Shown here: positions 679 to 30,890 of the stretch, in pieces
Layout of the letters: each line of letters opens with the position of its first letter
Numbering within the stretch: position 1 is the stretch's first letter
Program-made: the position numbers and the translations under genes
The notes under the pieces: model-generated
What the model was told of the DNA's origin: nothing
Database searches by the model: none
What the model saw: the letters and a program-made list of their open reading frames with translations, nothing else
DNA from: Candidatus Omnitrophota bacterium
GTDB lineage: Bacteria; Omnitrophota; Gorgyraeia; 2-02-FULL-51-18
Direction: 5' to 3'
Assembly (NCBI GenBank): GCA_016197155.1
Contig: JACPWF010000025.1
Coordinates: forward strand, 28,276-92,275
DNA: 64,000 bases

Positions 679-2562
679 TCAGGATATGATCGCCGGTGAA
701 GACTGCCGAACCTGGTCCGCATTGATCGCATCCTTTCGAAAATGGCCTTGTATCTTCCAATATTCGAAAAATGGGCCGCGACTATCCAAAAGTTCGTCGA
801 GGGTCCCTTGCTCCACCACTTGTCCGTTTTCAATCACAACGATCTTATCCGCGTCGGCAATAGTCGAAAGCCGGTGAGCAATTACAATCGCTGTTCGACC
901 TTTGATGCTTTCCGCGATCGCGCTTTGAACTCGTTTCTCCGTCTTTGCATCCATCGCGCTTGTAGCCTCGTCCAATATCAGGATATCCGCGCCCTTTAAG
1001 AGCGCCCGGGCAATCATGACCCGCTGTCTTTCACCACCCGACAGCAAAACCCCCCTGTCTCCCATGAGTGACTCTAGTCCCAACGGCAAGCGCTCAACCA
1101 CCTTCCCAAGCTCGGCCATCCTGATGACTCTTTGAATTTCGTCCTCTGAGATCCCTCTGTCCAGGCCATAACAAAGATTATTCCGAAGCGTGTCATTGAA
1201 AAACATCGGTTCTTGGGCCACAAAGGCGACACGGTCCATGAGAGAACGCCGGCTGAAATCCCGTACGTCTTTGCCGTCCAAAAAAATACTGCCGGGCGGG
1301 CATTCATAAAAACGCATGAGAAGATGAGCAACCGTCGTCTTCCCCGCTCCGGTCGATCCAACAATCGCTGTCGTCTGCCCCTTTTTCAAAGACAGGCTCA
1401 GGTTGCGCAATACGGGAACGTCCGGCAAATAGCCGAAGTTGAGATTCCTGATTTCGATGCTCTCACGCAGAGATTGAAAGGTTTTTGTGCCTTCTGAAAT
1501 GTAGTATTTTTTCTCTTCATTCATGATATAGCGAATATAAACTAGTGTGCCCTCCGCACGGGCCACGGAAATGTTAAATTGTGTGAGAGCCCCGAAAAGC
1601 GGGATGGTTCTCATCGCTACCAAAAAAAAGACAAGATGGGAGGAAACGTTTCGGTGCCCGGAATCCGAAGAAAACTGCATCATGAGAAACGCCACAAATC
1701 CAAGCAAGGCAATTCTGGACAACTCTTGAATGGGCGCAATCAGCAACTCCTTTTTCTTCGCTTCATGATCAAGAAGGATTTGTTTGTCGCTCAATTCCGT
1801 CAGACGGCTCACCTCATCTTTTTCACAAGCATAGGCTTTAACCAGTCCGATAGCTGAAACGACGTTAAACACTCGGAGAGAAAAATCAAGATACGATGTC
1901 TCCTGGGAAAGCGAAGACTCTTTGAGCTGCTGGATCAGCCGCCCAAAGAAAAAATGGTGCACGGGGAAAGTAATCACAAGAAAGAGCGTGAGTTTCCAGG
2001 AAATCCAACACATGAAAAAAAGATAGGCGGCCAGGAGCATCACCTGGCCGAGAAATCGCCGCAGGCTGCCCAGTTGGCCAGTGATGGTTTCGGATCCCCT
2101 GATCATCGTCTTGCTGATGTCACTCACGGCAATACCATCATAAAATTGTTTTCCAAAGGCCAGACACCTGCCAATGATGAGTTTCCGGACGTTGCGGTCC
2201 ACAATTTTGCTTTGTTGATCCATGTTGAGGCTCGAGAAATAAACTAGAAAATTTTTGACAACAAGCGAAATAACGATCGTGGACAAAAGCAGGACAAGAT
2301 AAGAGGCGGGGCTGGAAAATACGCTTGGGAAAAATTTCTGGACGTGTGAAATCAGCCCCAACTTGTCATGGACCGTCGTAAAATTCCCCTCGATAAGTCC
2401 GCGCAGGAATTTGATCAAAAGAGCCATTCCCAACAGATTAAATACGACCGAGAGCGCCGTGCAACCAATGGCTAGAAAGAAATGAATTGGGACTATGCCC
2501 ATGCGGCGGAAGAAATCAACTAGCTCCCGAATTTGAGTCAACGAATTGGATTTACCTTCCAT
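679..2562 (-). CDS. ABC transporter, fused permease/ATP-binding subunit (MsbA-like exporter)
   Basis: 627-aa ORF: N-terminal multi-TM region; Walker A GSTGAGKTT, signature LSGGERQR, Walker B ILILDEAT, H-loop IAHRLST. Confidence 0.85.
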   Translation of the reverse strand: MEGKSNSLTQIRELVDFFRRMGIVPIHFFLAIGCTALSVVFNLLGMALLIKFLRGLIEGNFTTVHDKLGLISHVQKFFPSVFSSPASYLVLLLSTIVISLVVKNFLVYFSSLNMDQQSKIVDRNVRKLIIGRCLAFGKQFYDGIAVSDISKTMIRGSETITGQLGSLRRFLGQVMLLAAYLFFMCWISWKLTLFLVITFPVHHFFFGRLIQQLKESSLSQETSYLDFSLRVFNVVSAIGLVKAYACEKDEVSRLTELSDKQILLDHEAKKKELLIAPIQELSRIALLGFVAFLMMQFSSDSGHRNVSSHLVFFLVAMRTIPLFGALTQFNISVARAEGTLVYIRYIMNEEKKYYISEGTKTFQSLRESIEIRNLNFGYLPDVPVLRNLSLSLKKGQTTAIVGSTGAGKTTVAHLLMRFYECPPGSIFLDGKDVRDFSRRSLMDRVAFVAQEPMFFNDTLRNNLCYGLDRGISEDEIQRVIRMAELGKVVERLPLGLESLMGDRGVLLSGGERQRVMIARALLKGADILILDEATSAMDAKTEKRVQSAIAESIKGRTAIVIAHRLSTIADADKIVVIENGQVVEQGTLDELLDSRGPFFEYWKIQGHFRKDAINADQVRQSSPAIIS

Positions 2563-3259
2563 TCTTTTTTACTCCCACGCCAACCGCCATTAAATAATGG
2601 GCCATCGGATAAAAACCGGTGTGCACAATTTCATCGTTCATCGAGAAAACGAACACATTGTGAAAACACCGTGTCAAAAGTTTTCTCAAACCCTCCGAAT
2701 TCTTCAGATTCACGTGCGCGATCCGACTGCGGGGGCTGGCATACTTGCGAGCTTCCTTGTTGGGAGTGCCCAGAATCAAAATTCCTTGAGGTGCGAGCGA
2801 TTTACAAATATTTCTCACAAAATGCCTTTCCAAAACCCTCGGAATATGCTCGATCACATCCAATGAATACGCCGCATCGAATTTTCGACCTGTCACCCGG
2901 TTTTTTGTAATATCAAGCACCGAAAAACGGCATTTTTTGATCCCCTCATGCCACAAACGATCCTGCGCATCGTGGATCACAAACGGCTCAAGATCTACAC
3001 CATGGACAAAACCAACTGTTTGGAGCATTACCGGGATGCCTATGGCATCGCCGCAGCCCACTTCCAGCACGCGCACGCAACCCGCGAGCATCTTGGCACA
3101 AAACTTGTATCGTGCCAGCAGAAACCCCAGATGCTTTGGATCGCTTCGCCAGATGTTACTGCTCCACGGCCCCAGGTGTGCGGCACCTCTTTGCCGATAG
3201 TCGTCAAGCTGACTATCCTGGGCCAGATGCTGTTTCTGTTTCGCGTCGATCCGGGTCAT
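2552..3259 (-). CDS. class I SAM-dependent methyltransferase
   Basis: Motif I VLEVGCGDAIG; ~235 aa. Start assigned to internal Met (MTRIDAK) giving an ATGA start/stop overlap with panB at 3256-3259. Confidence 0.7.
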   Translation of the reverse strand: MTRIDAKQKQHLAQDSQLDDYRQRGAAHLGPWSSNIWRSDPKHLGFLLARYKFCAKMLAGCVRVLEVGCGDAIGIPVMLQTVGFVHGVDLEPFVIHDAQDRLWHEGIKKCRFSVLDITKNRVTGRKFDAAYSLDVIEHIPRVLERHFVRNICKSLAPQGILILGTPNKEARKYASPRSRIAHVNLKNSEGLRKLLTRCFHNVFVFSMNDEIVHTGFYPMAHYLMAVGVGVKKNGR

Positions 3260-4146
3260 TTTGGAGATTCGACGACGTATTTCCACCGGGGATCCGCCAA
3301 CATTCTCTCGAGTTCTTCGTCTTTCAATTCATAAAAATGCTCGCTTGAGGGAAATTTTCCTGTACGCACTTCGGATGCGTACTGTCTCAGCGACTGCTCA
3401 ATCACCCTGCCCACCTCGCAATAGCGCTTGACAAATTTGGACTTGAATTCAAAAAACATGCCTATCAAATCATGCAGAATCACCAGCTGACCGTCCACCT
3501 GATCGCCGGCGCCGATGCCGTAAACCGGGATTTTTAAATTTTTGGCGACATAGCCGGCCGATTCCCGCGGCATCGCCTCGAGCAATAAAAGCCGGCAACC
3601 GGCCTCTTGCAGAGCGATCGCCTGCTCCAATATCCTGTCGGTTTCTTTCTTTGTCTTTCCCTGCACACGGTAGCCGCTTAGCATGGCCCGCGTTTGAGGT
3701 GTCAGACCCAGATGGCTCATCACGACAATGCCGGCGTCGGCAATCGCTTTGACCCGGTCCACCATGGCGCCTTCGACCTTCACCGCATCGCAGCCCCCTT
3801 CCTGCAAAAACCGGCCCGCATTGCGCACGGCAATTTCGTTGGAGACCTGGTAGGACATGAAAGGCATGTCCCCGATCTGCATGGCCTTTTTGTTGGCCCG
3901 CCAAACACCTCGGCAATGGCTGATCATGTCCTCCATCGTGACGGCAATGGTCGTCTTGTAGCCAAGTGTCGTCATCCCTAGCGAATCTCCCACCAGCACG
4001 ATATCCACTCCGGCGCGGTCGGCCAACAACGCCTCCGGATAAGTGTACGCGGTAACGGCCACCACTTTTTCTTTTTCTTCTTTTTTTCTCTCAAGCGTCA
4101 CCAGCGTTGTGCGCGGCCTGTCCATCGGACCGGAATTTTCTAGCAT
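3256..4146 (-). CDS. panB: 3-methyl-2-oxobutanoate hydroxymethyltransferase (ketopantoate hydroxymethyltransferase)
   Basis: Strong similarity to PanB along its length: VTAYTYPEALLADRAGVDIVLVGDSLGMT..., HLGLTPQ, IGAGDQVDGQLVILHD. Confidence 0.8.
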   Translation of the reverse strand: MLENSGPMDRPRTTLVTLERKKEEKEKVVAVTAYTYPEALLADRAGVDIVLVGDSLGMTTLGYKTTIAVTMEDMISHCRGVWRANKKAMQIGDMPFMSYQVSNEIAVRNAGRFLQEGGCDAVKVEGAMVDRVKAIADAGIVVMSHLGLTPQTRAMLSGYRVQGKTKKETDRILEQAIALQEAGCRLLLLEAMPRESAGYVAKNLKIPVYGIGAGDQVDGQLVILHDLIGMFFEFKSKFVKRYCEVGRVIEQSLRQYASEVRTGKFPSSEHFYELKDEELERMLADPRWKYVVESPK

Positions 4147-5954
4147 AGCGTTTTACTCCCTTTTAGTCTTTCTTTCTCCACTAATGTTGAGAACGCCTTT
4201 TCAATCTCCTTTAATTCCTCGGATCCGAGCTTGGGGTCCAAATCTTCGAGCGAGCCTCCAAATTTCAGCATCGGGACAATCCTTTGGTTTGGGAATATTT
4301 CCACGTTGCACAAGACGGGCCCCTGGCTTTGAAGGGCCTCACGGATCTGCCGACTCATTTTGGCGTGATCGCAGATATTCACGGTTTTCATGCCAAACGC
4401 CTGGCCGCTTTTCAAAAAATCGGGAAAGGCCAGACCGGTCGGTTCATCCACTCCTTCATACCGGGAATCCAGCCAGGTGTCCAGCGTCTGTTTTTGAATG
4501 CCGTGCCCATGGTTATTGAAAATGAAAACCGTGACAGGCAGGTGATGCCGGACCAGTGTCGCCAGTTCAGCCAGGCACATCATGATCCCGCCGTCACCGA
4601 TGATGCACAGGACGCGGCGATGACCCGCCGCCAGCGCCGCACCGATGCTCGCCGGCAGGGAATACCCCATCGGCGAATGGTTCCAGGCCGAAAAAAGACG
4701 CTGGCCGGGCTTGACGCGCCAGGCCTGCATCGTCCAGCTTAAATTTCCCCCGGCGTCGGTGATCACGATATCGTTTTCGCCGGATTGCTTCGAAAGCTCC
4801 TCCACAAACAGGTAGGCGTCCACACTGTCCGTTTTTTCAGACAGCCCGTCTGGTGCAATTGGAAACCGGCGCCGTAAGAGGCGGATAAAATCCAGCCAAT
4901 GATCGCGTTCCGAAGCCCGCACGGAAAAATCAACGGAAGAACAGTTTTGAAAAAATTCCCGGATACCGCTTTGAATCGGCAGATCCACCTTCACGCCGCA
5001 AGGGGCAAACTTTGCAAATTCTTCGGCGTCGATATCCACCACCGCCTTGCGTGCGTCCGGGGCGAAAAGCTCCTGCCTGCCGCCCGTGATCATTTGAGAG
5101 AGCCGGGTTCCCACCGCCAAAATCAGATCCGCCCTCTGGACCGTGAAGTTGCCCGCGCGCGGTCCGCACACGCCCAGCCCTCCCGCGCTGATCGGGTGGT
5201 CATACGGTATCAAATCGGCCCCACCCCATGTCAATAGGACCGGGATCCCTAATCGGTTGGCAAAATCAATCGCTTCTCTCTCAGCCTTTGCCAAACGGAT
5301 ACCCGCGCCATAAATGAGGACCGGACGCCGGCTTTGCTTCACCAAGGCGCATAATTTCTCCGGCCAATCGAATAACGGGGTTAGGCCCTGGGTCGAAGGC
5401 CCCGGCGCCTCAAACCGCTCCAATTTTTCAGGATCCACATCCACCCGCTGAACATCATCCGGAATGTCCAAAAGCACGGGGCCCGGACGGCCCGAACGCG
5501 CCAGCCAAAGCGCTTTTTCAAGCTCGTAGCGGATCAACGCCGGATCCTCAACCAAAACGGCATATTTGGTGACCGGTTTGAAAATGGAAACCACGTCCGT
5601 CTCCTGGAAACCTTTTTGCCTCAAACACCCGTTTTTCTTCAGACGGAAACGGGCCACCTGGCCGGTGAGAAAAAGTGAAGGGATAGAATCAAAATAAGCG
5701 CAACAGACGCCCGTGAGAAGGTTGGTGGCGCCCGGGCCGCTGGTCGTGATGGCCACGCCGAGGTTACCCGTGATTCGTGAATAGGCGTCCGCGGCCATCG
5801 CGGCGGCCTGTTCGTGTTGCGGACAAATGTACCGGAGGGAAGGGTGCCTGGCCACCGAATCCACCAAATGAATCGCGGCCCCGCCGGAAATCAAGAACAC
5901 GTGCCTGACTCCCTGACGCGCGATGAAATCGGCAACGTAGTCGGACAGTTTCAT
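4140..5954 (-). CDS. thiamine-diphosphate-dependent enzyme, acetolactate synthase large-subunit family (specific reaction unknown)
   Basis: ALS/IlvB-like N-terminal Pyr domain (GVRHVFLISGGAAIHLVD, TSGPGATNLLTG), SGRPGPVLLDIP, C-terminal TPP motif IIGDGG...N. Start placed at MKLSDYVADF (ATGA overlap with SDR stop at 5951-5954). Confidence 0.8.
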   Translation of the reverse strand: MKLSDYVADFIARQGVRHVFLISGGAAIHLVDSVARHPSLRYICPQHEQAAAMAADAYSRITGNLGVAITTSGPGATNLLTGVCCAYFDSIPSLFLTGQVARFRLKKNGCLRQKGFQETDVVSIFKPVTKYAVLVEDPALIRYELEKALWLARSGRPGPVLLDIPDDVQRVDVDPEKLERFEAPGPSTQGLTPLFDWPEKLCALVKQSRRPVLIYGAGIRLAKAEREAIDFANRLGIPVLLTWGGADLIPYDHPISAGGLGVCGPRAGNFTVQRADLILAVGTRLSQMITGGRQELFAPDARKAVVDIDAEEFAKFAPCGVKVDLPIQSGIREFFQNCSSVDFSVRASERDHWLDFIRLLRRRFPIAPDGLSEKTDSVDAYLFVEELSKQSGENDIVITDAGGNLSWTMQAWRVKPGQRLFSAWNHSPMGYSLPASIGAALAAGHRRVLCIIGDGGIMMCLAELATLVRHHLPVTVFIFNNHGHGIQKQTLDTWLDSRYEGVDEPTGLAFPDFLKSGQAFGMKTVNICDHAKMSRQIREALQSQGPVLCNVEIFPNQRIVPMLKFGGSLEDLDPKLGSEELKEIEKAFSTLVEKERLKGSKTLC

Positions 5955-6739
5955 CGCAATCCCGGCTCCACAAAAAAATGCCGGCTTTGGCCGCCATCGA
6001 CTGGAATAATAGCTCCTTGGCAAAATTCAGCCAAGTCCGAACATAGAAACACAACCATCGCCGCAACGTTTTCAGGCGTTCCAAAACGGCCAAGCGGGCA
6101 ACGTTCGGATAGATATTTTTTGACGTGCGCTGGACGTTCTCTAACTGCCTTGTCCCAATAACCCCCCTCGGTGAATACCGCCCCCGGCAAAACCGCGGAC
6201 ATCACGACTCCGTCCTTGGCCAGCACGCGCCCCATGCTACGCGAGTAAGCCGCCAACGCCGCCTTCGAAGTACAATAAGTCACGGGGCCGTTATTTTCCA
6301 TCGAAGAAGTTGAGCCAATATGAACGATACGACCCCATTTTTTCTTTTTCATTGCCGGAATAAAAATCTGATCCAGTTCAATTGCGATTTCCAGATTGCA
6401 ACGTAGCACCCTCCGCCAATCGCTCATCGAGCAAAAAGGATCGGTGATCTCGAGCGTCGATCCAAGATTATGCACCACCATATCCAAAGCCCCAAAATTT
6501 TTCTTAAGCCGGTGCGACAAAATGGCCGGCGCCTTGTCGGACATAAGATCCAGGGATTCACCGTAATGACCCTCTCCATACCGGCTCATTTCGTGGACTA
6601 GTGAGTGCACATCAGATTTTGTACGGGAAAATACGGAAACCTTAACCCCTTCCCTCGCCAAAGCGATCGCAATCCCGCGGCCGATCCCGCGGCCGGCGCC
6701 CGTCACAAGAGCAAGTTTTCCTTTAATTCCCAATTCCAT
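5951..6739 (-). CDS. short-chain dehydrogenase/reductase (SDR) family oxidoreductase
   Basis: N-terminal Rossmann motif LVTGAGRGIGRGIA; 262 aa; typical SDR length. Confidence 0.8.
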   Translation of the reverse strand: MELGIKGKLALVTGAGRGIGRGIAIALAREGVKVSVFSRTKSDVHSLVHEMSRYGEGHYGESLDLMSDKAPAILSHRLKKNFGALDMVVHNLGSTLEITDPFCSMSDWRRVLRCNLEIAIELDQIFIPAMKKKKWGRIVHIGSTSSMENNGPVTYCTSKAALAAYSRSMGRVLAKDGVVMSAVLPGAVFTEGGYWDKAVRERPAHVKKYLSERCPLGRFGTPENVAAMVVFLCSDLAEFCQGAIIPVDGGQSRHFFVEPGLR

Positions 6740-6756
6740 TATTCACCTTTGGACCA

Positions 6757-7731
6757 TCAGGCGTAAACATTTGATACATCCTGGTTTTCCCCGGCAAGCC
6801 ACTGATACTCTTGTTTCCAATGCAAATTCCACCTCGCGTCAGCCTGGCCGGGCGCGGCGGACCTGCTCAAGAAGTGCGCGGCGATATCCATGAGCCGGGG
6901 ATCTTTTTCCTGAGGAGAAAGTCCGCTGAAAACCCGGGAAGCTCCGAGTCTATCCCCCAACCAGGCCAGATTGATCCCATTGCACAAATTCAAAGACTTT
7001 TCGATCGCGTCAAAAAGCCGCTTGGCCGTCGGTGAGGCGTTTCGGACCTGAGACGCGGGGACAAAACGGAAATTAAAACTCAATCGCCTCCGCGACCGAG
7101 GTTTGGTCGCGCCATGAACCGTTTGAGGATCAAACACGAGCGCGTCGCCCTGTTTCAATGCGTACTGAACGATCTCGCTTTTTAGAAGCGGGTCGACTTC
7201 ATGTGCCTTACTTAGATATTCGTTTAGATTGTAGCGGTTTTTCTCCCCTTTCAAGGGAGCCGGGACAACATCCGAGACGTGCGTGGAGAAACCGCAGAGA
7301 CCGCCTGTTGACTCATTGATCTCTTCGAGCGGGACCCATATTGAAAACCCAAAAACACCATAGGCAGTGTCGTAGTGAGGTTCGGTGTATAGGAAAGCCT
7401 TCTCATGTTCTTTGGACAAGAAAACACCTGGCTGACAAAACCTCAGATAAAACAAAGGGCAAAGCATAAAATCCTCCCGGCTTCCATGGAAATCCCTCAG
7501 CTGAGGCGCCAAATAGTCCTTGATCCTCAGCAGGATCGCCGTTGACGCAAAACGAAACGTGACAATCCTCGAAACAACGGATTCTTTCTGGTGAATGCCG
7601 TTAAACTCCTCGCGTGTCCGGTTGCTGAAGTAATCCTTGTAAACGTCCTCCGAGGTCTTGTCCGCCGCATGGCGCAGCTCTTCCACAAAACTCTGCGGAA
7701 ACACACCTTTCAATAATCGCATTTGGCCCAT
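6757..7731 (-). CDS. PhyH-like Fe(II)/2-oxoglutarate-dependent dioxygenase (putative hydroxylase)
   Basis: HxD triad candidate (EPHYDTAYG), distal His (VHGATKP) and RRRLSFNFRF tail resemble the phytanoyl-CoA dioxygenase family. Start set at the internal ATG at 7731, which overlaps the upstream stop (TGATG). Confidence 0.5.
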   Translation of the reverse strand: MGQMRLLKGVFPQSFVEELRHAADKTSEDVYKDYFSNRTREEFNGIHQKESVVSRIVTFRFASTAILLRIKDYLAPQLRDFHGSREDFMLCPLFYLRFCQPGVFLSKEHEKAFLYTEPHYDTAYGVFGFSIWVPLEEINESTGGLCGFSTHVSDVVPAPLKGEKNRYNLNEYLSKAHEVDPLLKSEIVQYALKQGDALVFDPQTVHGATKPRSRRRLSFNFRFVPASQVRNASPTAKRLFDAIEKSLNLCNGINLAWLGDRLGASRVFSGLSPQEKDPRLMDIAAHFLSRSAAPGQADARWNLHWKQEYQWLAGENQDVSNVYA

Positions 7732-8969
7732 CACCACACCCCCGCGGGTAAAAAAACGGATTTGGGTCCGAGACCAAGCAGACGCCGCATGATAGGGCGA
7801 GCGCTGTCTAACGCCGTGATCAGGATATTGGCCGACCCCCATAAAATGCCCGGCCAGGGTTTGCGTATTTTCACCGCCAACGCCGGATAACACAAACCAT
7901 CCCGCCCGGGATCATCGTCCAGAATACATTCCAAAAAACCCAAGTCGCTCTTTAGATGATAGGCCAATGTCGGAACCATTTGTGCGCCCCCGTAGCCGTA
8001 CAGCGGCCCGCCCACATTTTGAACAAAATCCACGGTTTGCTCCATTCTTTGTTTGAACAAATCATGACGATGTCTGACCTGAGCGGCACTGGGAACCGGG
8101 GAGTTCGGCGGGAATACCCCTCCCGAACCGCTTTTTCCCTTCTCGAAAGCGATCAGCAAAGTGCCGTTCCAATATTGATGATTAAAAGTGTGGGCGACGT
8201 AACGCCCCCCTACGGCCTCAATCAAGCGGCAAAAGGATGCGACGCTGAAATATTGTAAATGCTGATGAAAGACCTGATCGAACCGCGAAGCGGCCAAAAG
8301 GGTCTCAAACGCCGGCACCTCGATCACAAAGAGCGCCCGGTCTGAGGCATATTTCACCCATGCCTCCAGAACCTTCCGCGGATCGGCCATGTGTTCAAAC
8401 GTGTGCGCGGAAATCACAAGATCCGGCCGATCACCCATTTCGTTCTTCAAATCCACCTCGTCGGCAAATTTCCCCAAGACGCGGATCTTCCCTTCTTTTA
8501 AAGGCCTGTCTTTCCAGATGGGATCGATACCGACCAGCCGCTTCGCTTTTGTTTGAATTTTTTTCAAAAGATACAAATCATTGCAGCCGATTTCGGCAAC
8601 CGTATGGAACGTTCTTCTTGCGAGAAATCCCTTTAGAAATGAATAAAAGAAATCGTTGCCCTGCCTGGCGATCGCGCTACGCGAGCTTCGATGGGAGTAC
8701 GTCTGGACATACAAATATTCGGGATCAATCACGTTTGAGAGTTGCGCATGCCCGCAATCTTCGCAGAGCGCTAGCATCTGGTCAAAAACCGGATAACATT
8801 CGGGACGGGGCCGGTCCACGTAAATGCCAGTCAGAGGGAATTGGGGAAGATCCAATACGGGTTCCAGATTCGCGCCGTGGCATACCGAACAACCGTTGTT
8901 ACGTAAAAACCGGATACGCGAAGCCGCTGGCGCCGTGCCTAAAGGGGGATCAGTTTGAACAGTTATCAT
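7731..8969 (-). CDS. C-methyltransferase of the TylCIII/EryBIII-like family (zinc-ribbon + SAM MTase + C-terminal C-MT domain)
   Basis: N-terminal CxxC...CxxC (CSVCHG...CEDCGHAQLSNVIDPEYLY), motif I VAEIGCNDLYLL, 412 aa, typical of NDP-hexose 3-C-methyltransferases. Confidence 0.6.
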   Translation of the reverse strand: MITVQTDPPLGTAPAASRIRFLRNNGCSVCHGANLEPVLDLPQFPLTGIYVDRPRPECYPVFDQMLALCEDCGHAQLSNVIDPEYLYVQTYSHRSSRSAIARQGNDFFYSFLKGFLARRTFHTVAEIGCNDLYLLKKIQTKAKRLVGIDPIWKDRPLKEGKIRVLGKFADEVDLKNEMGDRPDLVISAHTFEHMADPRKVLEAWVKYASDRALFVIEVPAFETLLAASRFDQVFHQHLQYFSVASFCRLIEAVGGRYVAHTFNHQYWNGTLLIAFEKGKSGSGGVFPPNSPVPSAAQVRHRHDLFKQRMEQTVDFVQNVGGPLYGYGGAQMVPTLAYHLKSDLGFLECILDDDPGRDGLCYPALAVKIRKPWPGILWGSANILITALDSARPIMRRLLGLGPKSVFLPAGVW

Positions 8970-9714
8970 AGATCGTTACCGAGGCCTTTTTTTGCAACAG
9001 ATGGTTGTATTCGGCCTGCCAGAGTTCGCCAAATTTCACATGCTTCCATTTATCAAACCACGGGCCGCCGCGCGTGAAATGAATGGCCTTGGGAATTTCG
9101 TCCGGAACGGCCCTGCTCCAACCCTCAAGCCAATTCCAAGTCTCCGGAAGCGCGCCGATCTCGGAATCTTTGAGCCATTGGAAACGGTGTAAAAAAGCGC
9201 CTGTTTCACGATTCACGGCCTCCGGGGTCAAAACACCGTTGGATGGGTAGGCACAATTCCAAAGCACGAGGCTGGACCAATTTTTCCGCGGATAAACCGT
9301 TTGAAGCGCGCCGTCCATTTTCGTCCGCTCCGGCGGACGATGGTCATGCTGGACACACATCACGGCGCACCGCGGATCGGCCATGGCGAAAAGCTCGGCG
9401 ACATCGGCCGTGAACAAAAAATCGCAGTCCACAAACAATGCCCAACCCCGGTAGTCGGCCAAAAAAGGCGTCAAAAAGCGGGTATACGTGAACTCCGTCG
9501 AGGCCAGAGGATCCTTGGACCGCGCGTATAGTCCCCCATGCCGAAGTTCTTCCTGTTTGAGAGGGGTGACATCAAGCGGCCGGCTCGAGTACCTGCGAAG
9601 AGACGCCAGACAAACGTCGTAGGCCACTTCCTCGCGGCTGTCCCAACCGATAAAAATTCTCAGTGCCTTCTTCATCAATCCGTCCATGATATAACAGGAT
9701 CGATAAACCTGCAA
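8950..9714 (-). CDS. GT-A fold glycosyltransferase, GT8-like
   Basis: Rossmann-like N-terminus (MKKALRIFIGWD), DxD candidate FVDCDFLF, C-terminal IHFTRGGPW resembling the GT8 HxxGxxKPW motif. True start may be the internal Met at ~9675. Confidence 0.5.
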   Translation of the reverse strand: MQVYRSCYIMDGLMKKALRIFIGWDSREEVAYDVCLASLRRYSSRPLDVTPLKQEELRHGGLYARSKDPLASTEFTYTRFLTPFLADYRGWALFVDCDFLFTADVAELFAMADPRCAVMCVQHDHRPPERTKMDGALQTVYPRKNWSSLVLWNCAYPSNGVLTPEAVNRETGAFLHRFQWLKDSEIGALPETWNWLEGWSRAVPDEIPKAIHFTRGGPWFDKWKHVKFGELWQAEYNHLLQKKASVTIYDNCSN

Positions 9715-10779
9715 TCAGCTTCTCAAAACCTTGAGTATCCTTTGCGCGGCGTCTCCCGAAATTACCGTTCGACTAACCATTTGTCTTGAATTTTCAAAAA
9801 GCGGCTGATTGTCAGGGGCCTTTTTAGCCAGATGAACGAAATGAAACCAATCCTCCGTCTCCCGGATCAAAAAAAGCGGCTCGTAGCGGGATGTGTCCAC
9901 GTCGCCGGCAACCACCGCCACCGGCACTCCGGCCCGGGCCGCGTCCAAAGCGACCGTTGAAGGAGTCGTGATGATCGCGTCCGACCCGCGAAGAAAAGCG
10001 GAAAGTCCGTAACGCCCCCAAACCGGCGCATGCGGATCGGCTAAAATCAGGTTCTTTAGACCGGAAAATACTTCACGGCCGTGCCGCGTAAACCACCTTT
10101 GGTCCGGATGAGGCCGCACAAAAAAGGTGGTGTCGGGAAGGCGCCTGGCGGTTTCTTTCAAATCCGCCATGAAACGCCTCCGGTACTCGTCGGAATAGCG
10201 ATGCCAATGCAAATTCTCAAAAACTGTGACGGTGAAAGGCCGCCCCTCGACTTTACCCAGGGGTATTTCGGAAAGCCTGAGTTCACGCGGATACCCCACC
10301 GGAATACATCTTCCCTTAACTTCGGACGGGATTTGGGGATCTAGGGAGGACAACTCCCCCCAAACAAAAATCTTTTGCGAAGCAAATCGCACCGTTCCCG
10401 GCGGATCTTTCTCATCAAAATAAGTCAGGCCGACCTGCTCAAAGCCATGCTGGACCGTGAAGGTTTTAATTCCAAGACGATTGGCCCGTCGCGTCAACGC
10501 GTAAGCCGCCGCGTGCGGCCGCAGACTGGATTCCGAAGCAGTAACCAGCGCGTCAAAGCCTCGCAGGCCCGGTCCTAGCCCCAAAATGATTTTCCATCTG
10601 GGAATCACCTGAAAACGAATGGGTAGGGACTGGAAATCGGAAGCTGTGGCGGCAAACCGGCGAAACAGCCTGTCCGTGAAATAGACGGACGCTTCAAACC
10701 CCCTGCCCACACCGCCTTTCACAATGGGCAACAAAAGTTCCGTGTCCTGCACATAATCCAGAAAAAAAAGAATCTTCAC
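9715..10779 (-). CDS. putative GT-B fold glycosyltransferase / capsule-type sugar transferase
   Basis: C-terminal TPSTVALDAARAGVPV resembles GT-B nucleotide-sugar binding helix. GTG start at 10779 forms a GTGA overlap with the upstream stop; the ORF-track N-terminal 57 aa overlap the upstream gene and are discounted. Confidence 0.4.
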   Translation of the reverse strand: MKILFFLDYVQDTELLLPIVKGGVGRGFEASVYFTDRLFRRFAATASDFQSLPIRFQVIPRWKIILGLGPGLRGFDALVTASESSLRPHAAAYALTRRANRLGIKTFTVQHGFEQVGLTYFDEKDPPGTVRFASQKIFVWGELSSLDPQIPSEVKGRCIPVGYPRELRLSEIPLGKVEGRPFTVTVFENLHWHRYSDEYRRRFMADLKETARRLPDTTFFVRPHPDQRWFTRHGREVFSGLKNLILADPHAPVWGRYGLSAFLRGSDAIITTPSTVALDAARAGVPVAVVAGDVDTSRYEPLFLIRETEDWFHFVHLAKKAPDNQPLFENSRQMVSRTVISGDAAQRILKVLRS

Positions 10780-12083
10780 GCGTCCCTCACGAACGGCGCG
10801 CGCGTCAAAAAAAAGTAGGTCAGGACGGGAAAACTCTGGATCATCAACCGGTCCAACGACACGGCGAGCTGAGTCGGCAAATTCAAAGCTGTCAGACAAT
10901 AGACACCCGCGTATCCGGCGTTCAGAAAAAAAACGGTCAGGGGTATCCAAATTTTATCTCTACCAAATATCTCCCGCCGGAAGAAAACCGCCAGCACACC
11001 GAAAACGGGCCAGGCATACGCCCAGGAATTTTCTTTGCGGATTTCCGCGGCAAAAAAGGAAAAAACCGTTCCCAGCCTTGACAAAATCTCTTCGGCCGTC
11101 AACCGACTGATCGCTTCCGGCCGCAGCATGTGATTCGGCGAAAACGTGCTCAGTTTAAAAAATACTGTGAACGCCAAAAATAAAAGTCCCCCCTTCGCCA
11201 TCGCGAAGAGAAACCGCCTCTCCGTAAACAGAGCCAGCGAGAGGCAAAAGGCCGCAAAAAACAAAAGCCCTTCGTTTTTCACAAAACCGGACATCCCTGC
11301 AAACGCGCCCGATACCATCGCCCAACGCGCGTCCTCGCCACAAAGTGCCATGTCCATCGAAACGATGGCAGCCGTAAAAAAATAGGCGACCGGAATATCC
11401 GCGTACTGCGACCCGCCCATTCCAATGAAATGCGGAATCGAAATGAGAAAGAGACCGGATACCCACGCCGAACGCCTTCCATAACGGGCGGCGGCCGCCA
11501 TTACCAAACCGACCAGGCACAAGGTCATCATGAAAGCCAACAGAAAAGCGGCCGCGGCCGTCTCCCGTCCCGCAAAAAGCCATGCCCAAACCAAGGCCAG
11601 CGGATAAAAGAGCGGATAGTCCGGATGAGAAAAACGTAAACCCGGCGCGAAGATCGCCCGCCAGTCCGCGGCATGATAAATGAAACGTGCCTTTATTTTC
11701 CAAATGGCCCAGACGTCGAGGCCCGTCCCGAACGGCGATTTCAGCATGACCGCGAGCAACAACAAAGCCGCCGCCGAAAGAATGGCGAAAAAAACCACGC
11801 CTTCTTTCATTGCCGCAGGTTCCCGTTTTGTATTGCGATATGCCCCCCACAGCATGACCAGCAAAAAAAGATGCGCGGCAATCGCGAGTTCTCTGGAAAT
11901 TCGGTGAAAGAAATACAGATCGAAATATAAAAGGAAGCTGGATATAAAAAGTCCCGCTCCCGGAGCGAGAAAAAGAAGGAGAGATCCCGGACAACGGGAA
12001 TTTTTCAGAAAAACCCGAAGGGCACAGAAACCGATCGCGCCTGAAACCAGATACGACATCATCGCTAAAAAACCGGCTGTCAT
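10776..12083 (-). CDS. polytopic inner-membrane protein, GT-C-like glycosyltransferase or O-antigen polymerase/ligase-like
   Basis: 435 aa, ~10-12 hydrophobic helices throughout, aromatic-rich loops. No soluble domain recognised. Confidence 0.4.
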   Translation of the reverse strand: MTAGFLAMMSYLVSGAIGFCALRVFLKNSRCPGSLLLFLAPGAGLFISSFLLYFDLYFFHRISRELAIAAHLFLLVMLWGAYRNTKREPAAMKEGVVFFAILSAAALLLLAVMLKSPFGTGLDVWAIWKIKARFIYHAADWRAIFAPGLRFSHPDYPLFYPLALVWAWLFAGRETAAAAFLLAFMMTLCLVGLVMAAAARYGRRSAWVSGLFLISIPHFIGMGGSQYADIPVAYFFTAAIVSMDMALCGEDARWAMVSGAFAGMSGFVKNEGLLFFAAFCLSLALFTERRFLFAMAKGGLLFLAFTVFFKLSTFSPNHMLRPEAISRLTAEEILSRLGTVFSFFAAEIRKENSWAYAWPVFGVLAVFFRREIFGRDKIWIPLTVFFLNAGYAGVYCLTALNLPTQLAVSLDRLMIQSFPVLTYFFLTRAPFVRDA

Positions 12084-12505
12084 GTGAAGCGCCTGTCTTT
12101 CCGTGCGATCGCCAAACCACCTGACTGAAAAAGGACCTCAAGGGAATTGTCCCTGCAATGGGACTCGAGTGATTCCGGCGTTTCGAAATCGAGAACGAAA
12201 TGATCGGCATGCGCGTTATTGTCTGAGATGAGGTGAGGAGCCATCGCGTATTGAAAGTCGTAATACCGCTCCGCCGCTTTCCCGGGAATCCCGGAGACGT
12301 AGGAAAAACGCGAAAAATCAAAGGGTGACGAAGAAACGAAGGAAAGAATTTTGTCTTTGAGAATCCGGTAACGCGAATCCACGGCCTCATGCCGCGAAAC
12401 CAGCGCCTGAACAGATCGGCAGGCAATCTTGATCTGCCTTATGAAACCAAAGGCTATCGACAAAATCAGGACAAAGCAGAGAAGGAATTTACGAAAACGA
12501 GGCAC
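12080..12505 (-). CDS. hypothetical membrane-anchored protein
   Basis: 141-aa ORF with N-terminal hydrophobic helix (FLLCFVLILSIAFGFI). Alternative (GTG) start; 4-nt overlap with downstream gene start. Confidence 0.4.
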   Translation of the reverse strand: MPRFRKFLLCFVLILSIAFGFIRQIKIACRSVQALVSRHEAVDSRYRILKDKILSFVSSSPFDFSRFSYVSGIPGKAAERYYDFQYAMAPHLISDNNAHADHFVLDFETPESLESHCRDNSLEVLFQSGGLAIARKDRRFT

Positions 12506-12515
12506 TTCGTTACCT

Positions 12516-12553
12516 AAAAAACAAAACCCGGTTCCCTTAGCGGGGAACCGGGT
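12516..12553 (-). terminator. rho-independent terminator downstream of the OM beta-barrel gene
   Basis: Perfect 11-bp stem cccggttcccc/ggggaaccggg with 4-5 nt loop. On the minus strand it is followed by a U-run (forward aaaaaacaaaa at 12516-12526). Confidence 0.45.
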
Positions 12554-12571
12554 CGGAGTTTGAGAATTTAA

Positions 12572-13462
12572 TTACCAGCGAATGCGCCCGTTCAGCGAGA
12601 CTGCCGTCTCCGCGATAAAGCGACCTTCAACATTCACGGCCAGACGATCACCAAAAGTGATGAGTTGAAGTCCTGTGGCCACCGCGACCGAATCTTGACC
12701 ATTCCGATGACCGGTCTGAACCGTTTCCCTCGGGTTGGTGGCATCTGCCGGCAATGAGCTGGTACCGGATATATTCAGGTCCAGATCATTGTATTGGACA
12801 CCCACGTAAGGAGTAATGCTAAACCCATTGATTCCGATAAAGCCGAGGGGATTGTCAATGCGTTGGGCGATTCCGATGCCCGTCTGCCATTCATTGATTT
12901 CCACTTCCAGATCCTCAATGACCGCATCCACCACCCCAATCGACGCGGTATCAACGGCCAAATGGGTCCATCGATAGCCACCGCTACCATAGATGTTCGC
13001 TTTTGGTAGGCCCGGAAAAATTCCAGAAAGCAGGTCCACCTCAATGAGATCGACTTTCCCGCCGACACCCACAGCAAACTGCGAATCAGTTTTAAGAACC
13101 ACTTTCGTAGTGGTGTTGTTGCTGATCGGCGTATTTCCAAGTTTCAAATTGGCTGTCCCAAGGAAGACATCGAGGTGAACCTTGTCGAGAGGGTCCCAGT
13201 AAACGTTGCCACCCCACCAGGTGGCCTCGCTCACGTCGGTGGCATCATCGAGGTTTCTGTCAATCACATAATCAGCTGACGTCCCAAACCCAACCGCCCA
13301 CGGACCCCACATGCCCATCCACGGCTGATCCTTGGAAGTGAGAAGCGGCGTCATCTGATAAGTGTTCAGGTCCGCATCGGACGGCATCGCGAAAGCGCGG
13401 TCGCCGGAAAATGAGACCACAGCCAAAAGGAACGCAACCACAACGAACGTTTTTATTTTCAT
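12572..13462 (-). CDS. outer-membrane beta-barrel protein (porin-like)
   Basis: Signal peptide MKIKTFVVVAFLLAVVSFSGDRAFA, alternating amphipathic strands, C-terminal ...NGRIRW (aromatic beta-signal). Confidence 0.6.
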   Translation of the reverse strand: MKIKTFVVVAFLLAVVSFSGDRAFAMPSDADLNTYQMTPLLTSKDQPWMGMWGPWAVGFGTSADYVIDRNLDDATDVSEATWWGGNVYWDPLDKVHLDVFLGTANLKLGNTPISNNTTTKVVLKTDSQFAVGVGGKVDLIEVDLLSGIFPGLPKANIYGSGGYRWTHLAVDTASIGVVDAVIEDLEVEINEWQTGIGIAQRIDNPLGFIGINGFSITPYVGVQYNDLDLNISGTSSLPADATNPRETVQTGHRNGQDSVAVATGLQLITFGDRLAVNVEGRFIAETAVSLNGRIRW

Positions 13463-23242: not shown

Positions 23243-23245
23243 CCG

Positions 23246-25696: not shown

Positions 25697-25700
25697 TTTT

Positions 25701-26387: not shown

Positions 26388-26388
26388 T

Positions 26389-27219: not shown

Positions 27220-27222
27220 GCG

Positions 27223-30874: not shown

Positions 30875-30890
30875 TTCTAATGCTCCTTTT

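What the first reader, a model, noticed from the sequence alone, without database searches (positions are those of the whole stretch)
7731..8969. TylCIII-family zinc-ribbon C-methyltransferase suggests a C-branched (methyl) sugar
Seen: N-terminal CxxC...CxxC (CSVCHG...CEDCGHAQLSNVIDPEYLY) followed by an EIGCNDL SAM motif in a 412-aa protein. This is the architecture of NDP-hexose 3-C-methyltransferases (established for TylCIII/EryBIII-like enzymes).

Together with two further SAM methyltransferases (partial gene at 1-678; 2552-3259) and a PhyH-like hydroxylase (6757-7731), the locus encodes an unusually rich set of tailoring enzymes.
Basis: partly seen in the sequence, partly recalled or inferred. 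Interest (0 to 1): 0.5.

Follow-up and report, generated by a model that had tools for sequence, protein, structure and literature searches.

The report
Divergent sugar C-methyltransferase in branched-sugar operon
The gene is real and folds like the known zinc-ribbon sugar C-methyltransferases, but it belongs to a distant, uncharacterised branch that always travels with enzymes that graft carbon side-chains onto keto-sugars, so the locus probably makes a multiply branched surface sugar and not just a 3-C-methyl hexose.

Summary
The 412-aa ORF at 7731-8969 exists, on the minus strand, with the quoted motifs. Pfam finds Methyltransf_13 and a class I methyltransferase domain. The C-terminal Methyltransf_14 domain is below threshold. 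A family profile still aligns full length to MtmC, TcaB9 and KijD1 (E about 1e-35), and an AlphaFold model (pLDDT 90) superposes full length (TM 0.75-0.81).

It is not a close TylCIII orthologue (19-23% identity). In this clade the residues matching TcaB9 Glu224 and Tyr222 are invariantly Gln and Phe. The equivalents of Tyr76, His181 and His225 and the zinc cysteines are kept.

In 92 related loci the gene sits with a FabG-like reductase and a thiamine enzyme, either YerE-like or a split transketolase. Pyruvate-dehydrogenase E1-like subunits, a 4,6-dehydratase-like gene and heptose-type activation genes are usually present too. The window holds the methyltransferase, a PhyH oxygenase, the reductase, a YerE-like enzyme (best solved match JanthE) and a dedicated PanB, but no sugar-nucleotide genes.

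Best reading: it C-methylates a nucleotide-linked keto-sugar within an acyl-branched-sugar pathway. The methylated position and the sugar are unknown.

The parts
7731..8969 (-). Zinc-ribbon SAM-dependent C-methyltransferase of a divergent clade ('MT13'), 412 aa. Domains: Methyltransf_13 at aa 27-87, class I methyltransferase at aa 118-257, and a diverged Methyltransf_14-like nucleotide-binding domain at about aa 295-410.
   Evidence: ORF and motifs. Pfam. Solved structures by sequence and by profile. AF2 model, pLDDT 90.2. Foldseek TM 0.80-0.81 to MtmC. Conserved residues.
6757..7731 (-). PhyH-family Fe(II)/2-oxoglutarate oxygenase, 324 aa from the ATG at 7731. Probably a tailoring hydroxylase.
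   Evidence: Pfam PhyH E 4e-7, and a weak match to TIGR04324 'sporadic carbohydrate cluster 2OG-Fe(II) oxygenase'. Start overlaps the methyltransferase stop. Homologues at 34-38% identity in related loci L022, L087 and L061. No solved relative by sequence.
5951..6739 (-). Classical FabG-like short-chain dehydrogenase/reductase, 262 aa. It is the constant partner of the methyltransferase and the thiamine enzyme, and is proposed to be the YerF/ErwF-type ketoreductase.
   Evidence: Pfam adh_short_C2 E 1.4e-41. Best solved matches are FabG. 48-77% identical copies lie next to the methyltransferase and thiamine-enzyme genes in related loci.
4140..5954 (-). YerE-like thiamine-diphosphate carboligase with the acetolactate-synthase fold, about 604 aa from the ATG at 5954. 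The listed ORF starts at a TTG at 6023. The GDG motif is present (IIGDGG).
   Evidence: Pfam TPP_enzyme_N/M/C. All acetolactate-synthase equivalog models score below their cutoffs. Best solved match is 8rph (JanthE, a YerE-like enzyme) at E 7e-101 and 341 bits, against about 272 bits for true AHAS. 8rph identity from PMC12188165. Sequence.
3256..4146 (-). PanB (3-methyl-2-oxobutanoate hydroxymethyltransferase) paralogue embedded in the operon. Proposed supplier of a hydroxymethylated alpha-keto-acid donor.
   Evidence: Pfam E 4.5e-99; TIGR00222 290.7 bits against a cutoff of 207.6. 61-79% identical PanB genes lie directly after the YerE-like gene in L019, L022 and L028. No panC, panD or panE in the window.
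2552..3286 (-). Small class I SAM methyltransferase, 244 aa from the GTG. Probably an O-methyltransferase.
   Evidence: Pfam. Weak UbiG-like match. 51-54% identical genes in L007 and L019. A small methyltransferase is present in 19 of 22 well-flanked related loci.
679..2562 (-). ABC exporter of the MsbA/HepA type, 627 aa.
   Evidence: Pfam and NCBIfam. 37-39% identical ABC genes stand at the head of related clusters L054 and L022.
1..678 (-). 3' part of another class I methyltransferase gene. It runs off the window edge.
   Evidence: Weak Pfam methyltransferase hits. 35-40% identical genes in L009 and L031.
8950..9714 (-). Conserved protein of unknown function, 254 aa, with no Pfam family.
   Evidence: No family at E<=0.01; weak Glyco_transf_8 at E 0.048. 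65% identical and syntenic in L017.
9715..10950 (-). Protein resembling 'surface carbohydrate biosynthesis' and DUF6716 putative glycosyltransferases. The start is uncertain because the ORF overlaps the next one.
   Evidence: DUF6716 E 6.5e-5, TIGR04396 E 5e-6, both below cutoff. 41% identical and syntenic in L017.
10776..12083 (-). PMT_2-type membrane (GT-C) glycosyltransferase. Likely transfers the finished sugar from a lipid carrier.
   Evidence: Pfam PMT_2 E 3e-6. 37-38% identical in L005 and L017.
12080..13462 (-). Two conserved unknown ORFs at the head of the operon: 12080-12505 (141 aa) and 12572-13462 (296 aa).
   Evidence: No Pfam family. Homologues in L017 (31%) and L005 (44%).

Best explanation
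ORF 7731-8969 (-) encodes a SAM-dependent C-methyltransferase of the zinc-ribbon sugar C-methyltransferase superfamily (TylCIII, TcaB9, MtmC, KijD1), but of a distant, uncharacterised clade.

Proposed mechanism:
- The C-terminal Rossmann-like domain holds the nucleotide of a nucleotide-activated keto-sugar.
- His237, the equivalent of TcaB9 His225, abstracts a proton alpha to the keto group.
- The resulting enolate attacks the methyl group of SAM, giving a C-methyl branch.

The enzyme works inside a conserved module. A YerE-like thiamine enzyme (4140-5954) adds an acyl branch to the keto-sugar from an alpha-keto acid, here probably one made by the adjacent PanB. The FabG-like reductase (5951-6739) reduces the branch ketone. 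PhyH and the small methyltransferases tailor the product further. An ABC exporter and a GT-C glycosyltransferase deliver it to a surface glycan of this LPS-bearing Omnitrophica bacterium.

Shown: fold, domain order, conserved residues, and gene association.
Inferred: substrate identity, position of methylation, order of steps, and the PanB role.
For: Homology and fold:
- Phmmer matches MtmC at 3e-20 and TcaB9 at 5e-16.
- The family profile matches them at about 1e-35 across all three domains, including the GYGA loop.
- The AF2 model has pLDDT 90.2 and superposes at TM 0.75-0.81 on MtmC, TcaB9 and KijD1 only.

Active site:
- The equivalents of TcaB9 Tyr76, His181 and His225 are Y91, H193 and H237. 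All three are invariant in 35 homologues.
- The four zinc cysteines and SAM motif I are conserved.

Gene context:
- Of 22 related loci with at least 8 kb on both sides, 20 have the reductase and 20 have a YerE-like enzyme or a split transketolase. 18 have E1 alpha/beta, 18 an epimerase/dehydratase, and 10 each HldE-like and SIS genes.
- The reductase lies within 131 bp of the methyltransferase gene in 32 of the 62 loci where both are seen.
- In L005 and L020 a dTDP-glucose-4,6-dehydratase-like gene overlaps the methyltransferase start.
- The methyltransferase stays constant while the thiamine enzyme type and the donor-supply genes vary. This argues that it acts on the common sugar scaffold.

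Thiamine enzyme and published scheme:
- Its best solved relative is JanthE, a YerE-like ketone-accepting carboligase.
- The published scheme is aldolase, then YerE-like enzyme, then reductase, for acyl-branched sugars (PMC9306805; PMC12247030).

The organism has lipid A genes in the same window.
Against: - The 64-kb window has no sugar-nucleotide synthesis, 4,6-dehydratase or E1 genes, so the substrate link rests on other genomes.
- Pfam Methyltransf_14 is below threshold and NCBIfam has no family.
- Identity to characterised enzymes is only 19-23%.
- The TcaB9 Glu224 and Tyr222 equivalents are invariantly Gln and Phe, so the chemistry or substrate contacts may differ.
- Two homologues (L008, L009) lack the zinc cysteines.
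- No member of this clade has been assayed.
- The 80 metagenome loci were retrieved with a motif that includes FHQH and are not phylogenetically independent.
Confidence: 0.68

Rival explanations
1. It is a straightforward TylCIII/EryBIII-type NDP-4-keto-6-deoxyhexose 3-C-methyltransferase, and the product is a simple 3-C-methyl deoxyhexose of the mycarose or virenose type.
For: Same architecture and fold. A dTDP-glucose-4,6-dehydratase-like gene sits next to homologues. There is precedent in LPS from Coxiella CBU_0691 (PMC3539893).
Against: - Identity is 19-23%, against 42-44% among true orthologues.
- Glu224 is replaced by Gln and Tyr222 by Phe invariantly. The low-identity homologues L011, L014 and L015, which lack reductase and thiamine-enzyme neighbours, keep YHEH.
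- The gene is regularly linked to YerE-like or transketolase-type, and usually also E1-type, C-C ligases.
- Related loci carry HldE-like and SIS genes, not RmlA/RmlB.
- The position of methylation is untested.
Confidence: 0.15
2. The enzyme methylates the acyl side-chain and not the ring. After thiamine-dependent carboligation the branch carries a ketone, and the carbon alpha to it is methylated before the adjacent reductase reduces that ketone.
For: The methyltransferase gene is tightly adjacent to the reductase and thiamine-enzyme genes. The review notes that branch ketones are methylated in some natural products, for example everninomicin (PMC12247030). The altered Glu-to-Gln and Tyr-to-Phe pocket could reflect a different acceptor.
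Against: In many loci the methyltransferase gene overlaps the 4,6-dehydratase-like gene and is separated from the reductase by aldolase genes, which suggests it acts early on the ring keto-sugar. There is no direct evidence either way.
Confidence: 0.12
3. It does not act on a sugar nucleotide. Either it methylates a free alpha-keto acid, preparing the donor for the thiamine enzyme, or it is an O- or N-methyltransferase that merely shares the fold.
For: The window contains alpha-keto-acid enzymes (PanB and an ALS-like enzyme) but no sugar-nucleotide genes. Enolate methylation of alpha-keto acids is chemically analogous.
Against: - The methyltransferase is equally present in the 33 transketolase-type loci, which have no aldolase or PanB donor-supply genes.
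- The C-terminal domain and its GYGA loop, which align to the nucleotide-binding domain of TcaB9 and MtmC, are conserved.
- Every solved full-length structural neighbour is an NDP-sugar C-methyltransferase.
Confidence: 0.05

Closest known systems
MtmC (PDB 4rv9), TcaB9 (3ndi) and KijD1 (5t64): solved dTDP-sugar 3-C-methyltransferases of actinomycete antibiotic pathways, with their relatives TylCIII, EryBIII and AviG1
   Same: - Three-domain architecture: four-Cys zinc ribbon, class I SAM domain, and C-terminal Rossmann-like domain.
- Full-length profile alignment at E about 1e-35 and TM 0.75-0.81.
- The equivalents of Tyr76, His181 and His225 are conserved.
   Different: - Only 19-23% identity.
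- Pfam Methyltransf_14 is below threshold.
- Glu224 is replaced by Gln and Tyr222 by Phe, invariantly.
- It is found in surface-glycan operons of uncultivated Gram-negative phyla.
- It is linked to thiamine-dependent branching enzymes and heptose-type activation genes, not to dTDP-deoxyhexose (RmlA/RmlB) pathways.
The YerE/YerF and ErwE/ErwF/ErwI/ErwJ pathways for acyl-branched LPS sugars such as yersiniose, erwiniose and caryophyllose: the 'unifying scheme' of Steitz et al. 2022 (PMC9306805)
   Same: - An ALS-fold thiamine carboligase whose nearest solved relative is the YerE-like JanthE.
- A reductase gene directly upstream of it.
- An alpha-keto-acid-forming enzyme next to it.
- Many sister loci carry exactly the BphI/BphJ-like aldolase and dehydrogenase pair (DmpG/DmpF) of the erwiniose cluster.
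   Different: - In the window the aldolase pair is replaced by a PanB hydroxymethyltransferase.
- A zinc-ribbon C-methyltransferase is an integral, constant member of the module.
- Sister loci usually add a second thiamine enzyme (E1 alpha/beta).
- Sister loci have HldE-like and SIS genes where the known clusters have CDP-3,6-dideoxyhexose genes.
- The acceptor-sugar genes are missing from the window.
Coxiella burnetii CBU_0691, the TylCIII-like enzyme proposed for virenose in LPS
   Same: A sugar C-methyltransferase of this superfamily used for a Gram-negative surface glycan (PMC3539893).
   Different: CBU_0691 is a close TylCIII orthologue (44% identity) in a GDP-mannose or dTDP-glucose 6-deoxyhexose pathway. 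The window protein is a remote clade with different neighbours.

Membership tests
Zinc-ribbon NDP-sugar C-methyltransferases (TylCIII/TcaB9/MtmC; Pfam Methyltransf_13 + class I methyltransferase + Methyltransf_14) | N-terminal four-cysteine zinc ribbon (PF08421) | tested here: met
   PF08421 E 2.4e-12, 47.3 bits against a cutoff of 31.3. C27, C30, C69 and C72 align with the TcaB9 cysteines and are conserved in the clade. L008 and L009 are exceptions.
Zinc-ribbon NDP-sugar C-methyltransferases (TylCIII/TcaB9/MtmC; Pfam Methyltransf_13 + class I methyltransferase + Methyltransf_14) | Class I SAM-binding Rossmann domain with motif I (E-I-G-C-N-D) | tested here: met
   Methyltransf_23 E 9e-12. EIGCNDL aligns to EIGCNDG of TcaB9. 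G128 and D131 are invariant.
Zinc-ribbon NDP-sugar C-methyltransferases (TylCIII/TcaB9/MtmC; Pfam Methyltransf_13 + class I methyltransferase + Methyltransf_14) | C-terminal C-methyltransferase domain scoring above the Pfam PF08484 gathering threshold | tested here: not met
   PF08484 E 0.063, 13.5 bits against a cutoff of 23.5, covering aa 302-371 only. Roughly a third of the listed homologues do carry a precomputed PF08484 hit.
Zinc-ribbon NDP-sugar C-methyltransferases (TylCIII/TcaB9/MtmC; Pfam Methyltransf_13 + class I methyltransferase + Methyltransf_14) | The whole three-domain fold superposes on solved members | tested here: met
   The profile of 35 homologues aligns positions 13-387 to TcaB9 13-395 and MtmC 10-380 at E about 1e-35. 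The AF2 model (pLDDT 90.2) gives TM 0.80-0.81 to MtmC, 0.77 to TcaB9 and 0.75 to KijD1 over about 420 columns. The next hits reach TM about 0.33.
Zinc-ribbon NDP-sugar C-methyltransferases (TylCIII/TcaB9/MtmC; Pfam Methyltransf_13 + class I methyltransferase + Methyltransf_14) | The active-site residues mutated in the solved TcaB9 entries: Tyr76, His181, Tyr222, Glu224, His225 | tested here: inconclusive
   Y76 maps to Y91, H181 to H193 and H225 to H237, all invariant. Y222 maps to F234 and E224 to Q236, both invariant substitutions (mutant list). MtmC and the low-identity homologues L011, L014 and L015 keep Y-H-E-H. The catalytic role of each residue is recalled from the literature and was not re-read here.
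Zinc-ribbon NDP-sugar C-methyltransferases (TylCIII/TcaB9/MtmC; Pfam Methyltransf_13 + class I methyltransferase + Methyltransf_14) | Encoded with genes that make an NDP-4-keto-6-deoxy sugar substrate | tested here: inconclusive
   Not met in the window: there is no dehydratase, nucleotidyltransferase (other than GlmU) or epimerase in 64 kb. Met in relatives: 18 of 22 well-flanked loci have epimerase/dehydratase genes, and the one overlapping the methyltransferase start is dTDP-glucose-4,6-dehydratase-like. The cluster runs off the window edge.
Zinc-ribbon NDP-sugar C-methyltransferases (TylCIII/TcaB9/MtmC; Pfam Methyltransf_13 + class I methyltransferase + Methyltransf_14) | SAM-dependent transfer of methyl to C3 (or C5) of the keto-sugar | not testable with these tools
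   Needs an enzyme assay and NMR of the product.
YerE/YerF-type acyl-branched-sugar pathway (Steitz et al. 2022) | A ketone-accepting ALS-fold thiamine carboligase distinct from true acetolactate synthase | tested here: met
   The best solved match is JanthE (8rph) at 341 bits, against 279 for 5ahk and about 272 for AHAS. All AHAS equivalog models score far below their cutoffs. 8rph is JanthE, a YerE-like enzyme. Ketone acceptance itself was not tested.
YerE/YerF-type acyl-branched-sugar pathway (Steitz et al. 2022) | An NAD(P)H-dependent reductase encoded next to the thiamine enzyme | tested here: met
   The SDR at 5951-6739 overlaps the thiamine-enzyme start as ATGA. The same pairing is seen in related loci.
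YerE/YerF-type acyl-branched-sugar pathway (Steitz et al. 2022) | A pyruvate aldolase (with or without acetaldehyde dehydrogenase) supplying a gamma-hydroxy-alpha-keto-acid donor | tested here: not met
   No DmpG/DmpF/HpcH homologue in the window. PanB occupies the equivalent position. Aldolase genes or PanB occur in 16 of 23 YerE-like loci and 0 of 33 transketolase loci (Fisher p 6e-9).
YerE/YerF-type acyl-branched-sugar pathway (Steitz et al. 2022) | Genes for the nucleotide-activated 4-keto deoxysugar acceptor in the same cluster | tested here: not met
   Absent from the window. Present in sister loci. The window edge cuts the operon.

The most novel reading that the evidence does not exclude
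The methyltransferase clade marks a widespread, undescribed pathway in largely uncultivated phyla: Omnitrophica, Verrucomicrobia, Planctomycetes, Patescibacteria and Candidatus Adiutrix. The pathway would build a multiply carbon-branched higher sugar, carrying a C-methyl group plus one or two thiamine-installed branches, on a heptose-like nucleotide scaffold. In the window's variant a dedicated PanB paralogue replaces the aldolases of the published scheme and supplies a hydroxymethylated alpha-keto acid (ketopantoate-like) as donor for the YerE-like enzyme. That would give a new kind of sugar side-chain and a new role for PanB.
Probability: 0.3. Interest if true: 0.65.

Novelty: new variant of a known kind. 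Interest (0 to 1): 0.45.

Why it matters
C-branched sugars are rare determinants of LPS and glycan antigenicity, and the enzymes that make them are sought as biocatalysts for quaternary and tertiary carbon centres.

If the reading is right, three things follow:
- This clade extends sugar C-methyltransferases well beyond actinomycete antibiotic pathways, into the cell envelopes of candidate phyla.
- It provides a sequence signature (F-H-Q-H in place of Y-x-E-H) that predicts a different genomic and biochemical context.
- It reveals a conserved gene module combining C-methylation with up to three classes of thiamine-dependent C-C ligases.

The PanB association suggests an unexplored source of alpha-keto-acid donors for YerE-like carboligases, which could be tested directly with published assays.

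Tried and rejected
- Extending the locus beyond window position 1 failed three ways. Exact-protein look-ups of P0001 and of the ABC transporter found nothing on record. A 54-nt exact search of metagenome contigs found nothing. The genome-contig scan returned only relatives at 39% identity or less.
- NCBIfam gave no family for the methyltransferase.
- The TcaB9, MtmC and KijD1 mechanism papers are not in the held library. The catalytic roles of Tyr76, His181, Glu224 and His225 therefore rest on memory plus the PDB entry titles.
- A search for literature linking YerE-like enzymes with heptose found nothing.
- PhyH has no solved relative by sequence, and the SDR matches only generic FabG, so neither refines the chemistry.
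- I rejected the idea that the ALS-like enzyme, PanB and SDR form a housekeeping valine or pantothenate segment. There is no ilvC, ilvD, panC, panD or panE in the window. The ALS-like protein fails every AHAS equivalog cutoff. The same PanB recurs after the same YerE-like gene in three other phylogenetically distant loci, including a Patescibacteria MAG.
- I rejected a non-sugar methyltransferase clade, because every full-length structural neighbour is an NDP-sugar C-methyltransferase.


Full report
**Observation**

The ORF at 7731-8969 is real and lies on the minus strand. It encodes 412 aa. The quoted strings are all present: CSVCHG at aa 27-32, CEDCGHAQLSNVIDPEYLY at aa 69-87 and EIGCNDL at aa 126-132.

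It sits in a run of same-strand, mostly overlapping ORFs from about 13462 down to the window edge at position 1, so it is part of an operon. Its ATG lies inside the end of ORF 8950-9714. Its TGA overlaps the ATG of the PhyH gene.

A 100% identical protein is annotated in a Candidatus Omnitrophica MAG on a 116-kb contig. That gene call is 374 aa and starts after the first CxxC.

**Domain and fold tests**

Pfam results:
- Methyltransf_13, the zinc ribbon: E 2.4e-12, above the gathering score.
- Methyltransf_23: E 9e-12.
- Methyltransf_14, the C-terminal domain that defines the TylCIII type: only E 0.063, 13.5 bits against a cutoff of 23.5.

NCBIfam has no model for the protein.

Against solved structures the single sequence matches MtmC (3e-20), TcaB9 (5e-16) and KijD1 (2e-13), but only over aa 26-259. 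A profile built from 35 homologues (A1) extends the alignment over all three domains. It aligns profile positions 13-387 to TcaB9 13-395 at E about 1e-35, and includes the G-Y-G-A loop of the C-terminal domain.

An AlphaFold2 model from A1 has mean pLDDT 90.2. Foldseek places it full length on MtmC (TM 0.80-0.81), TcaB9 (0.77) and KijD1 (0.75) at 19-23% identity. Every other solved hit covers only the methyltransferase core, at TM about 0.33.

So the architecture claim is correct at the fold level.

**A distinct clade**

The protein heads a family of more than 500 metagenomic proteins at 44-64% identity. They come from Omnitrophica, Verrucomicrobia/Opitutae, Patescibacteria and others.

I mapped the residues mutated in the solved TcaB9 entries: Y76F, H181N, Y222F, E224Q and H225N (titles). 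The PDB chain index is the residue number plus 2.

| TcaB9 residue | Window residue | State in A1 |
|---|---|---|
| Tyr76 | Y91 | invariant |
| His181 | H193 | invariant |
| His225 | H237 | invariant |
| Tyr222 | F234 | invariant substitution |
| Glu224 | Q236 | invariant substitution |

The best-scoring TcaB9 entry for the profile is in fact the E224Q mutant.

The motif tracks the gene neighbourhood:
- Homologues found by independent peptide patterns that carry the reductase, and usually a thiamine enzyme, as neighbours (L007-L010) keep the Gln.
- Low-identity homologues from Hyphomicrobiales, Burkholderiales and Rhizobium (L011, L014, L015; 22-26% identity) have none of those neighbours. They read Y-H-E-H, as MtmC does.

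True TylCIII orthologues are far closer to each other; Coxiella CBU_0691 is 44% identical to TylCIII (PMC3539893). I therefore file this protein in the superfamily but not as a TylCIII orthologue.

**Neighbours in the window**

Reading the minus strand in the direction of transcription:
- two conserved unknown ORFs (12572-13462 and 12080-12505);
- a PMT_2 GT-C glycosyltransferase (10776-12083);
- a protein resembling 'surface carbohydrate biosynthesis' and DUF6716 proteins (9715-10950);
- an unknown 254-aa protein (8950-9714);
- the methyltransferase;
- PhyH;
- a FabG-like SDR (5951-6739);
- an acetolactate-synthase-fold thiamine enzyme (4140-5954);
- PanB (3256-4146; 290.7 bits against an equivalog cutoff of 207.6);
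- a small methyltransferase;
- an MsbA/HepA-like ABC exporter;
- a truncated methyltransferase at the window edge.

The thiamine enzyme fails all AHAS equivalog cutoffs. Its best solved relative is 8rph at E 7e-101 and 341 bits, against about 272 bits for plant and bacterial AHAS. 8rph is JanthE, a YerE-like ketone-accepting carboligase (PMC12188165).

The rest of the window is housekeeping, including a lipid A gene block (lpxB, lpxI, lpxA, lpxC-fabZ, lpxD, skp, bamA). It contains no sugar-nucleotide dehydratase, HldE, E1, panC, panD or panE.

**Comparative context**

Nine look-ups of homologues, one genome scan and one metagenome scan gave 92 usable loci. I annotated them by tblastn against Pfam-labelled reference genes.

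The typical gene order is: epimerase, HldE-like, SIS, epimerase, E1 alpha, E1 beta, 4,6-dehydratase-like, methyltransferase, optionally DmpF-DmpG-HpcH, SDR, then either a YerE-like enzyme or a split transketolase, then a small methyltransferase and a zinc alcohol dehydrogenase. GT2 and GT-C transferases are often present.

Counts among the 22 loci with at least 8 kb on both sides:

| Neighbour | Loci |
|---|---|
| SDR | 20 |
| YerE-like enzyme or split transketolase | 20 |
| Small methyltransferase | 19 |
| E1 alpha and beta | 18 |
| Epimerase/dehydratase | 18 |
| HldE-like | 10 |
| SIS | 10 |

The SDR lies within 131 bp of the methyltransferase gene in 32 of the 62 loci where both are seen.

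The gene overlapping the methyltransferase start in L005 is most similar to dTDP-glucose 4,6-dehydratase: 6bi4 at E 2.5e-41, and TIGR01181 at 186 bits, below its cutoff.

The HldE-like and GmhA-like proteins score well below their equivalog cutoffs, and the HldE-like protein has its two domains in reversed order. 'Heptose' is therefore a tentative label.

**Link to published biochemistry**

Steitz et al. (PMC9306805) showed that acyl-branched LPS sugars such as erwiniose, caryophyllose and gastriose are made in three steps:
- An aldolase, with or without an acetaldehyde dehydrogenase (ErwI/ErwJ, which are BphI/BphJ-like), supplies a gamma-hydroxy-alpha-keto acid.
- A YerE-like thiamine enzyme adds that acid to a CDP-4-keto-3,6-dideoxyhexose.
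- An adjacent reductase (ErwF) reduces the branch ketone.

The review PMC12247030 adds that E1-type enzymes and split transketolases are alternative branch-forming enzymes.

The sister loci reproduce this scheme gene for gene, as DmpF-DmpG-HpcH-SDR-YerE-like. Aldolase genes or PanB occur in 16 of 23 YerE-like loci and in none of 33 transketolase loci (Fisher p 6e-9; the loci are not independent). This is what is expected if these genes supply decarboxylatable alpha-keto-acid donors.

PanB stands directly after the YerE-like gene in the window and in L022 (78.5% identical), L028 (72%) and L019, a Patescibacteria MAG (61%). In those loci the aldolases are absent. PanB chemistry, the hydroxymethylation of an alpha-keto acid at C3, is an established function of the family. 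Its use here as a donor supplier is my inference.

**Mechanism proposed**

The methyltransferase is present regardless of which thiamine enzyme or donor system a locus uses, and it is often translationally coupled to the dehydratase-like gene. It most likely acts on the common nucleotide-linked keto-sugar. His237 would act as base, an enolate would form alpha to the keto group, and that enolate would attack SAM, as proposed for TcaB9 (from memory).

The YerE-like enzyme then adds the acyl branch at the carbonyl carbon, or does so beforehand. The SDR reduces the branch ketone. PhyH and the small methyltransferases decorate the product. The ABC exporter and the PMT_2 GT-C enzyme deliver it to the envelope.

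Fold, residues and gene linkage are shown. Substrate, regiochemistry, order of steps and the PanB role are inferred.

Rivals, in decreasing likelihood:
- a plain TylCIII-type 3-C-methyltransferase;
- side-chain methylation alpha to the branch ketone;
- a non-sugar or non-C-methyl activity.

**Verdict**

This is a signature-bearing clade embedded in a conserved, apparently undescribed multi-thiamine-enzyme branched-sugar module, with a PanB-containing variant in this window. No paper in the held library links YerE-like enzymes with heptose or with this methyltransferase type. An in-silico survey of more than 200 YerE-like clusters exists (Krug et al. 2024, cited in PMC12247030), but it is not held and I could not check it.

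I rate this a new variant of a known kind, with moderate interest.

Noticed in passing
window 3256-6739 (-): A YerE-like thiamine carboligase (best solved match JanthE, 8rph), its upstream FabG-like reductase and a PanB paralogue form an overlapping three-gene block.
   Followed up: yes
L019 4977-5816; L022 13894-14745; L028 13874-14728: PanB genes 61-79% identical to the window's PanB lie directly after the YerE-like gene in three other loci, one from a Patescibacteria MAG. The L019 copy was not in that record's gene calls. In these loci the DmpF/DmpG/HpcH aldolase genes are absent.
   Followed up: partly
L001-L101 (92 loci with a gene of this methyltransferase clade): Aldolase or PanB genes accompany only the ALS-fold (YerE-like) thiamine enzyme (16 of 23 loci) and never the split transketolase (0 of 33). 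Most well-flanked loci also carry a second thiamine enzyme (E1 alpha/beta), which implies two thiamine-dependent C-C bond formations per pathway.
   Followed up: partly
L008 9980-11155; L009 9872-11155: Two Verrucomicrobia/Opitutaceae homologues (37-38% identical) have lost all four zinc-ribbon cysteines but keep the F-H-Q-H motif and the GYGA loop.
   Followed up: no
L020 3767-5317 (and equivalents in L001, L003, L008, L010): The HldE-like bifunctional protein in sister loci has its domains in reversed order, with the nucleotidyltransferase N-terminal and the kinase C-terminal. It scores far below the HldE cutoffs, so the activated sugar may not be a standard ADP-heptose.
   Followed up: no
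L003 167-2055: In Actomonas aquatica (CP139781) the cluster lies immediately downstream of two flagellin genes, which hints at flagellin glycosylation in that cultivated organism.
   Followed up: no
window 22310-33200: A lipid A and outer-membrane block: a GFO/IDH/MocA oxidoreductase next to lpxB, then (beyond glnA and a response regulator) lpxI, lpxA, a fused LpxC-FabZ protein (430 aa), lpxD, skp and bamA. A second MsbA-like ABC exporter lies at 20281-22098. The host is therefore diderm with LPS.
   Followed up: partly
window 8950-9714 (-): A 254-aa protein with no Pfam or NCBIfam family is 65% identical to a syntenic gene in L017. There it also follows PMT_2 and a surf_polysacc-like gene. 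It is a conserved unknown of the glycan-transfer part of the locus.
   Followed up: no
window 7731-8969 (-), compared with P0001: The public gene call for this protein (374 aa) starts about 38 codons too late and removes the first CxxC of the zinc ribbon.
   Followed up: yes
window 13555-14421 (-): A response-regulator/GGDEF diguanylate cyclase gene separates the glycan operon from serS-frr-pyrH-tsf-rpsB.
   Followed up: no
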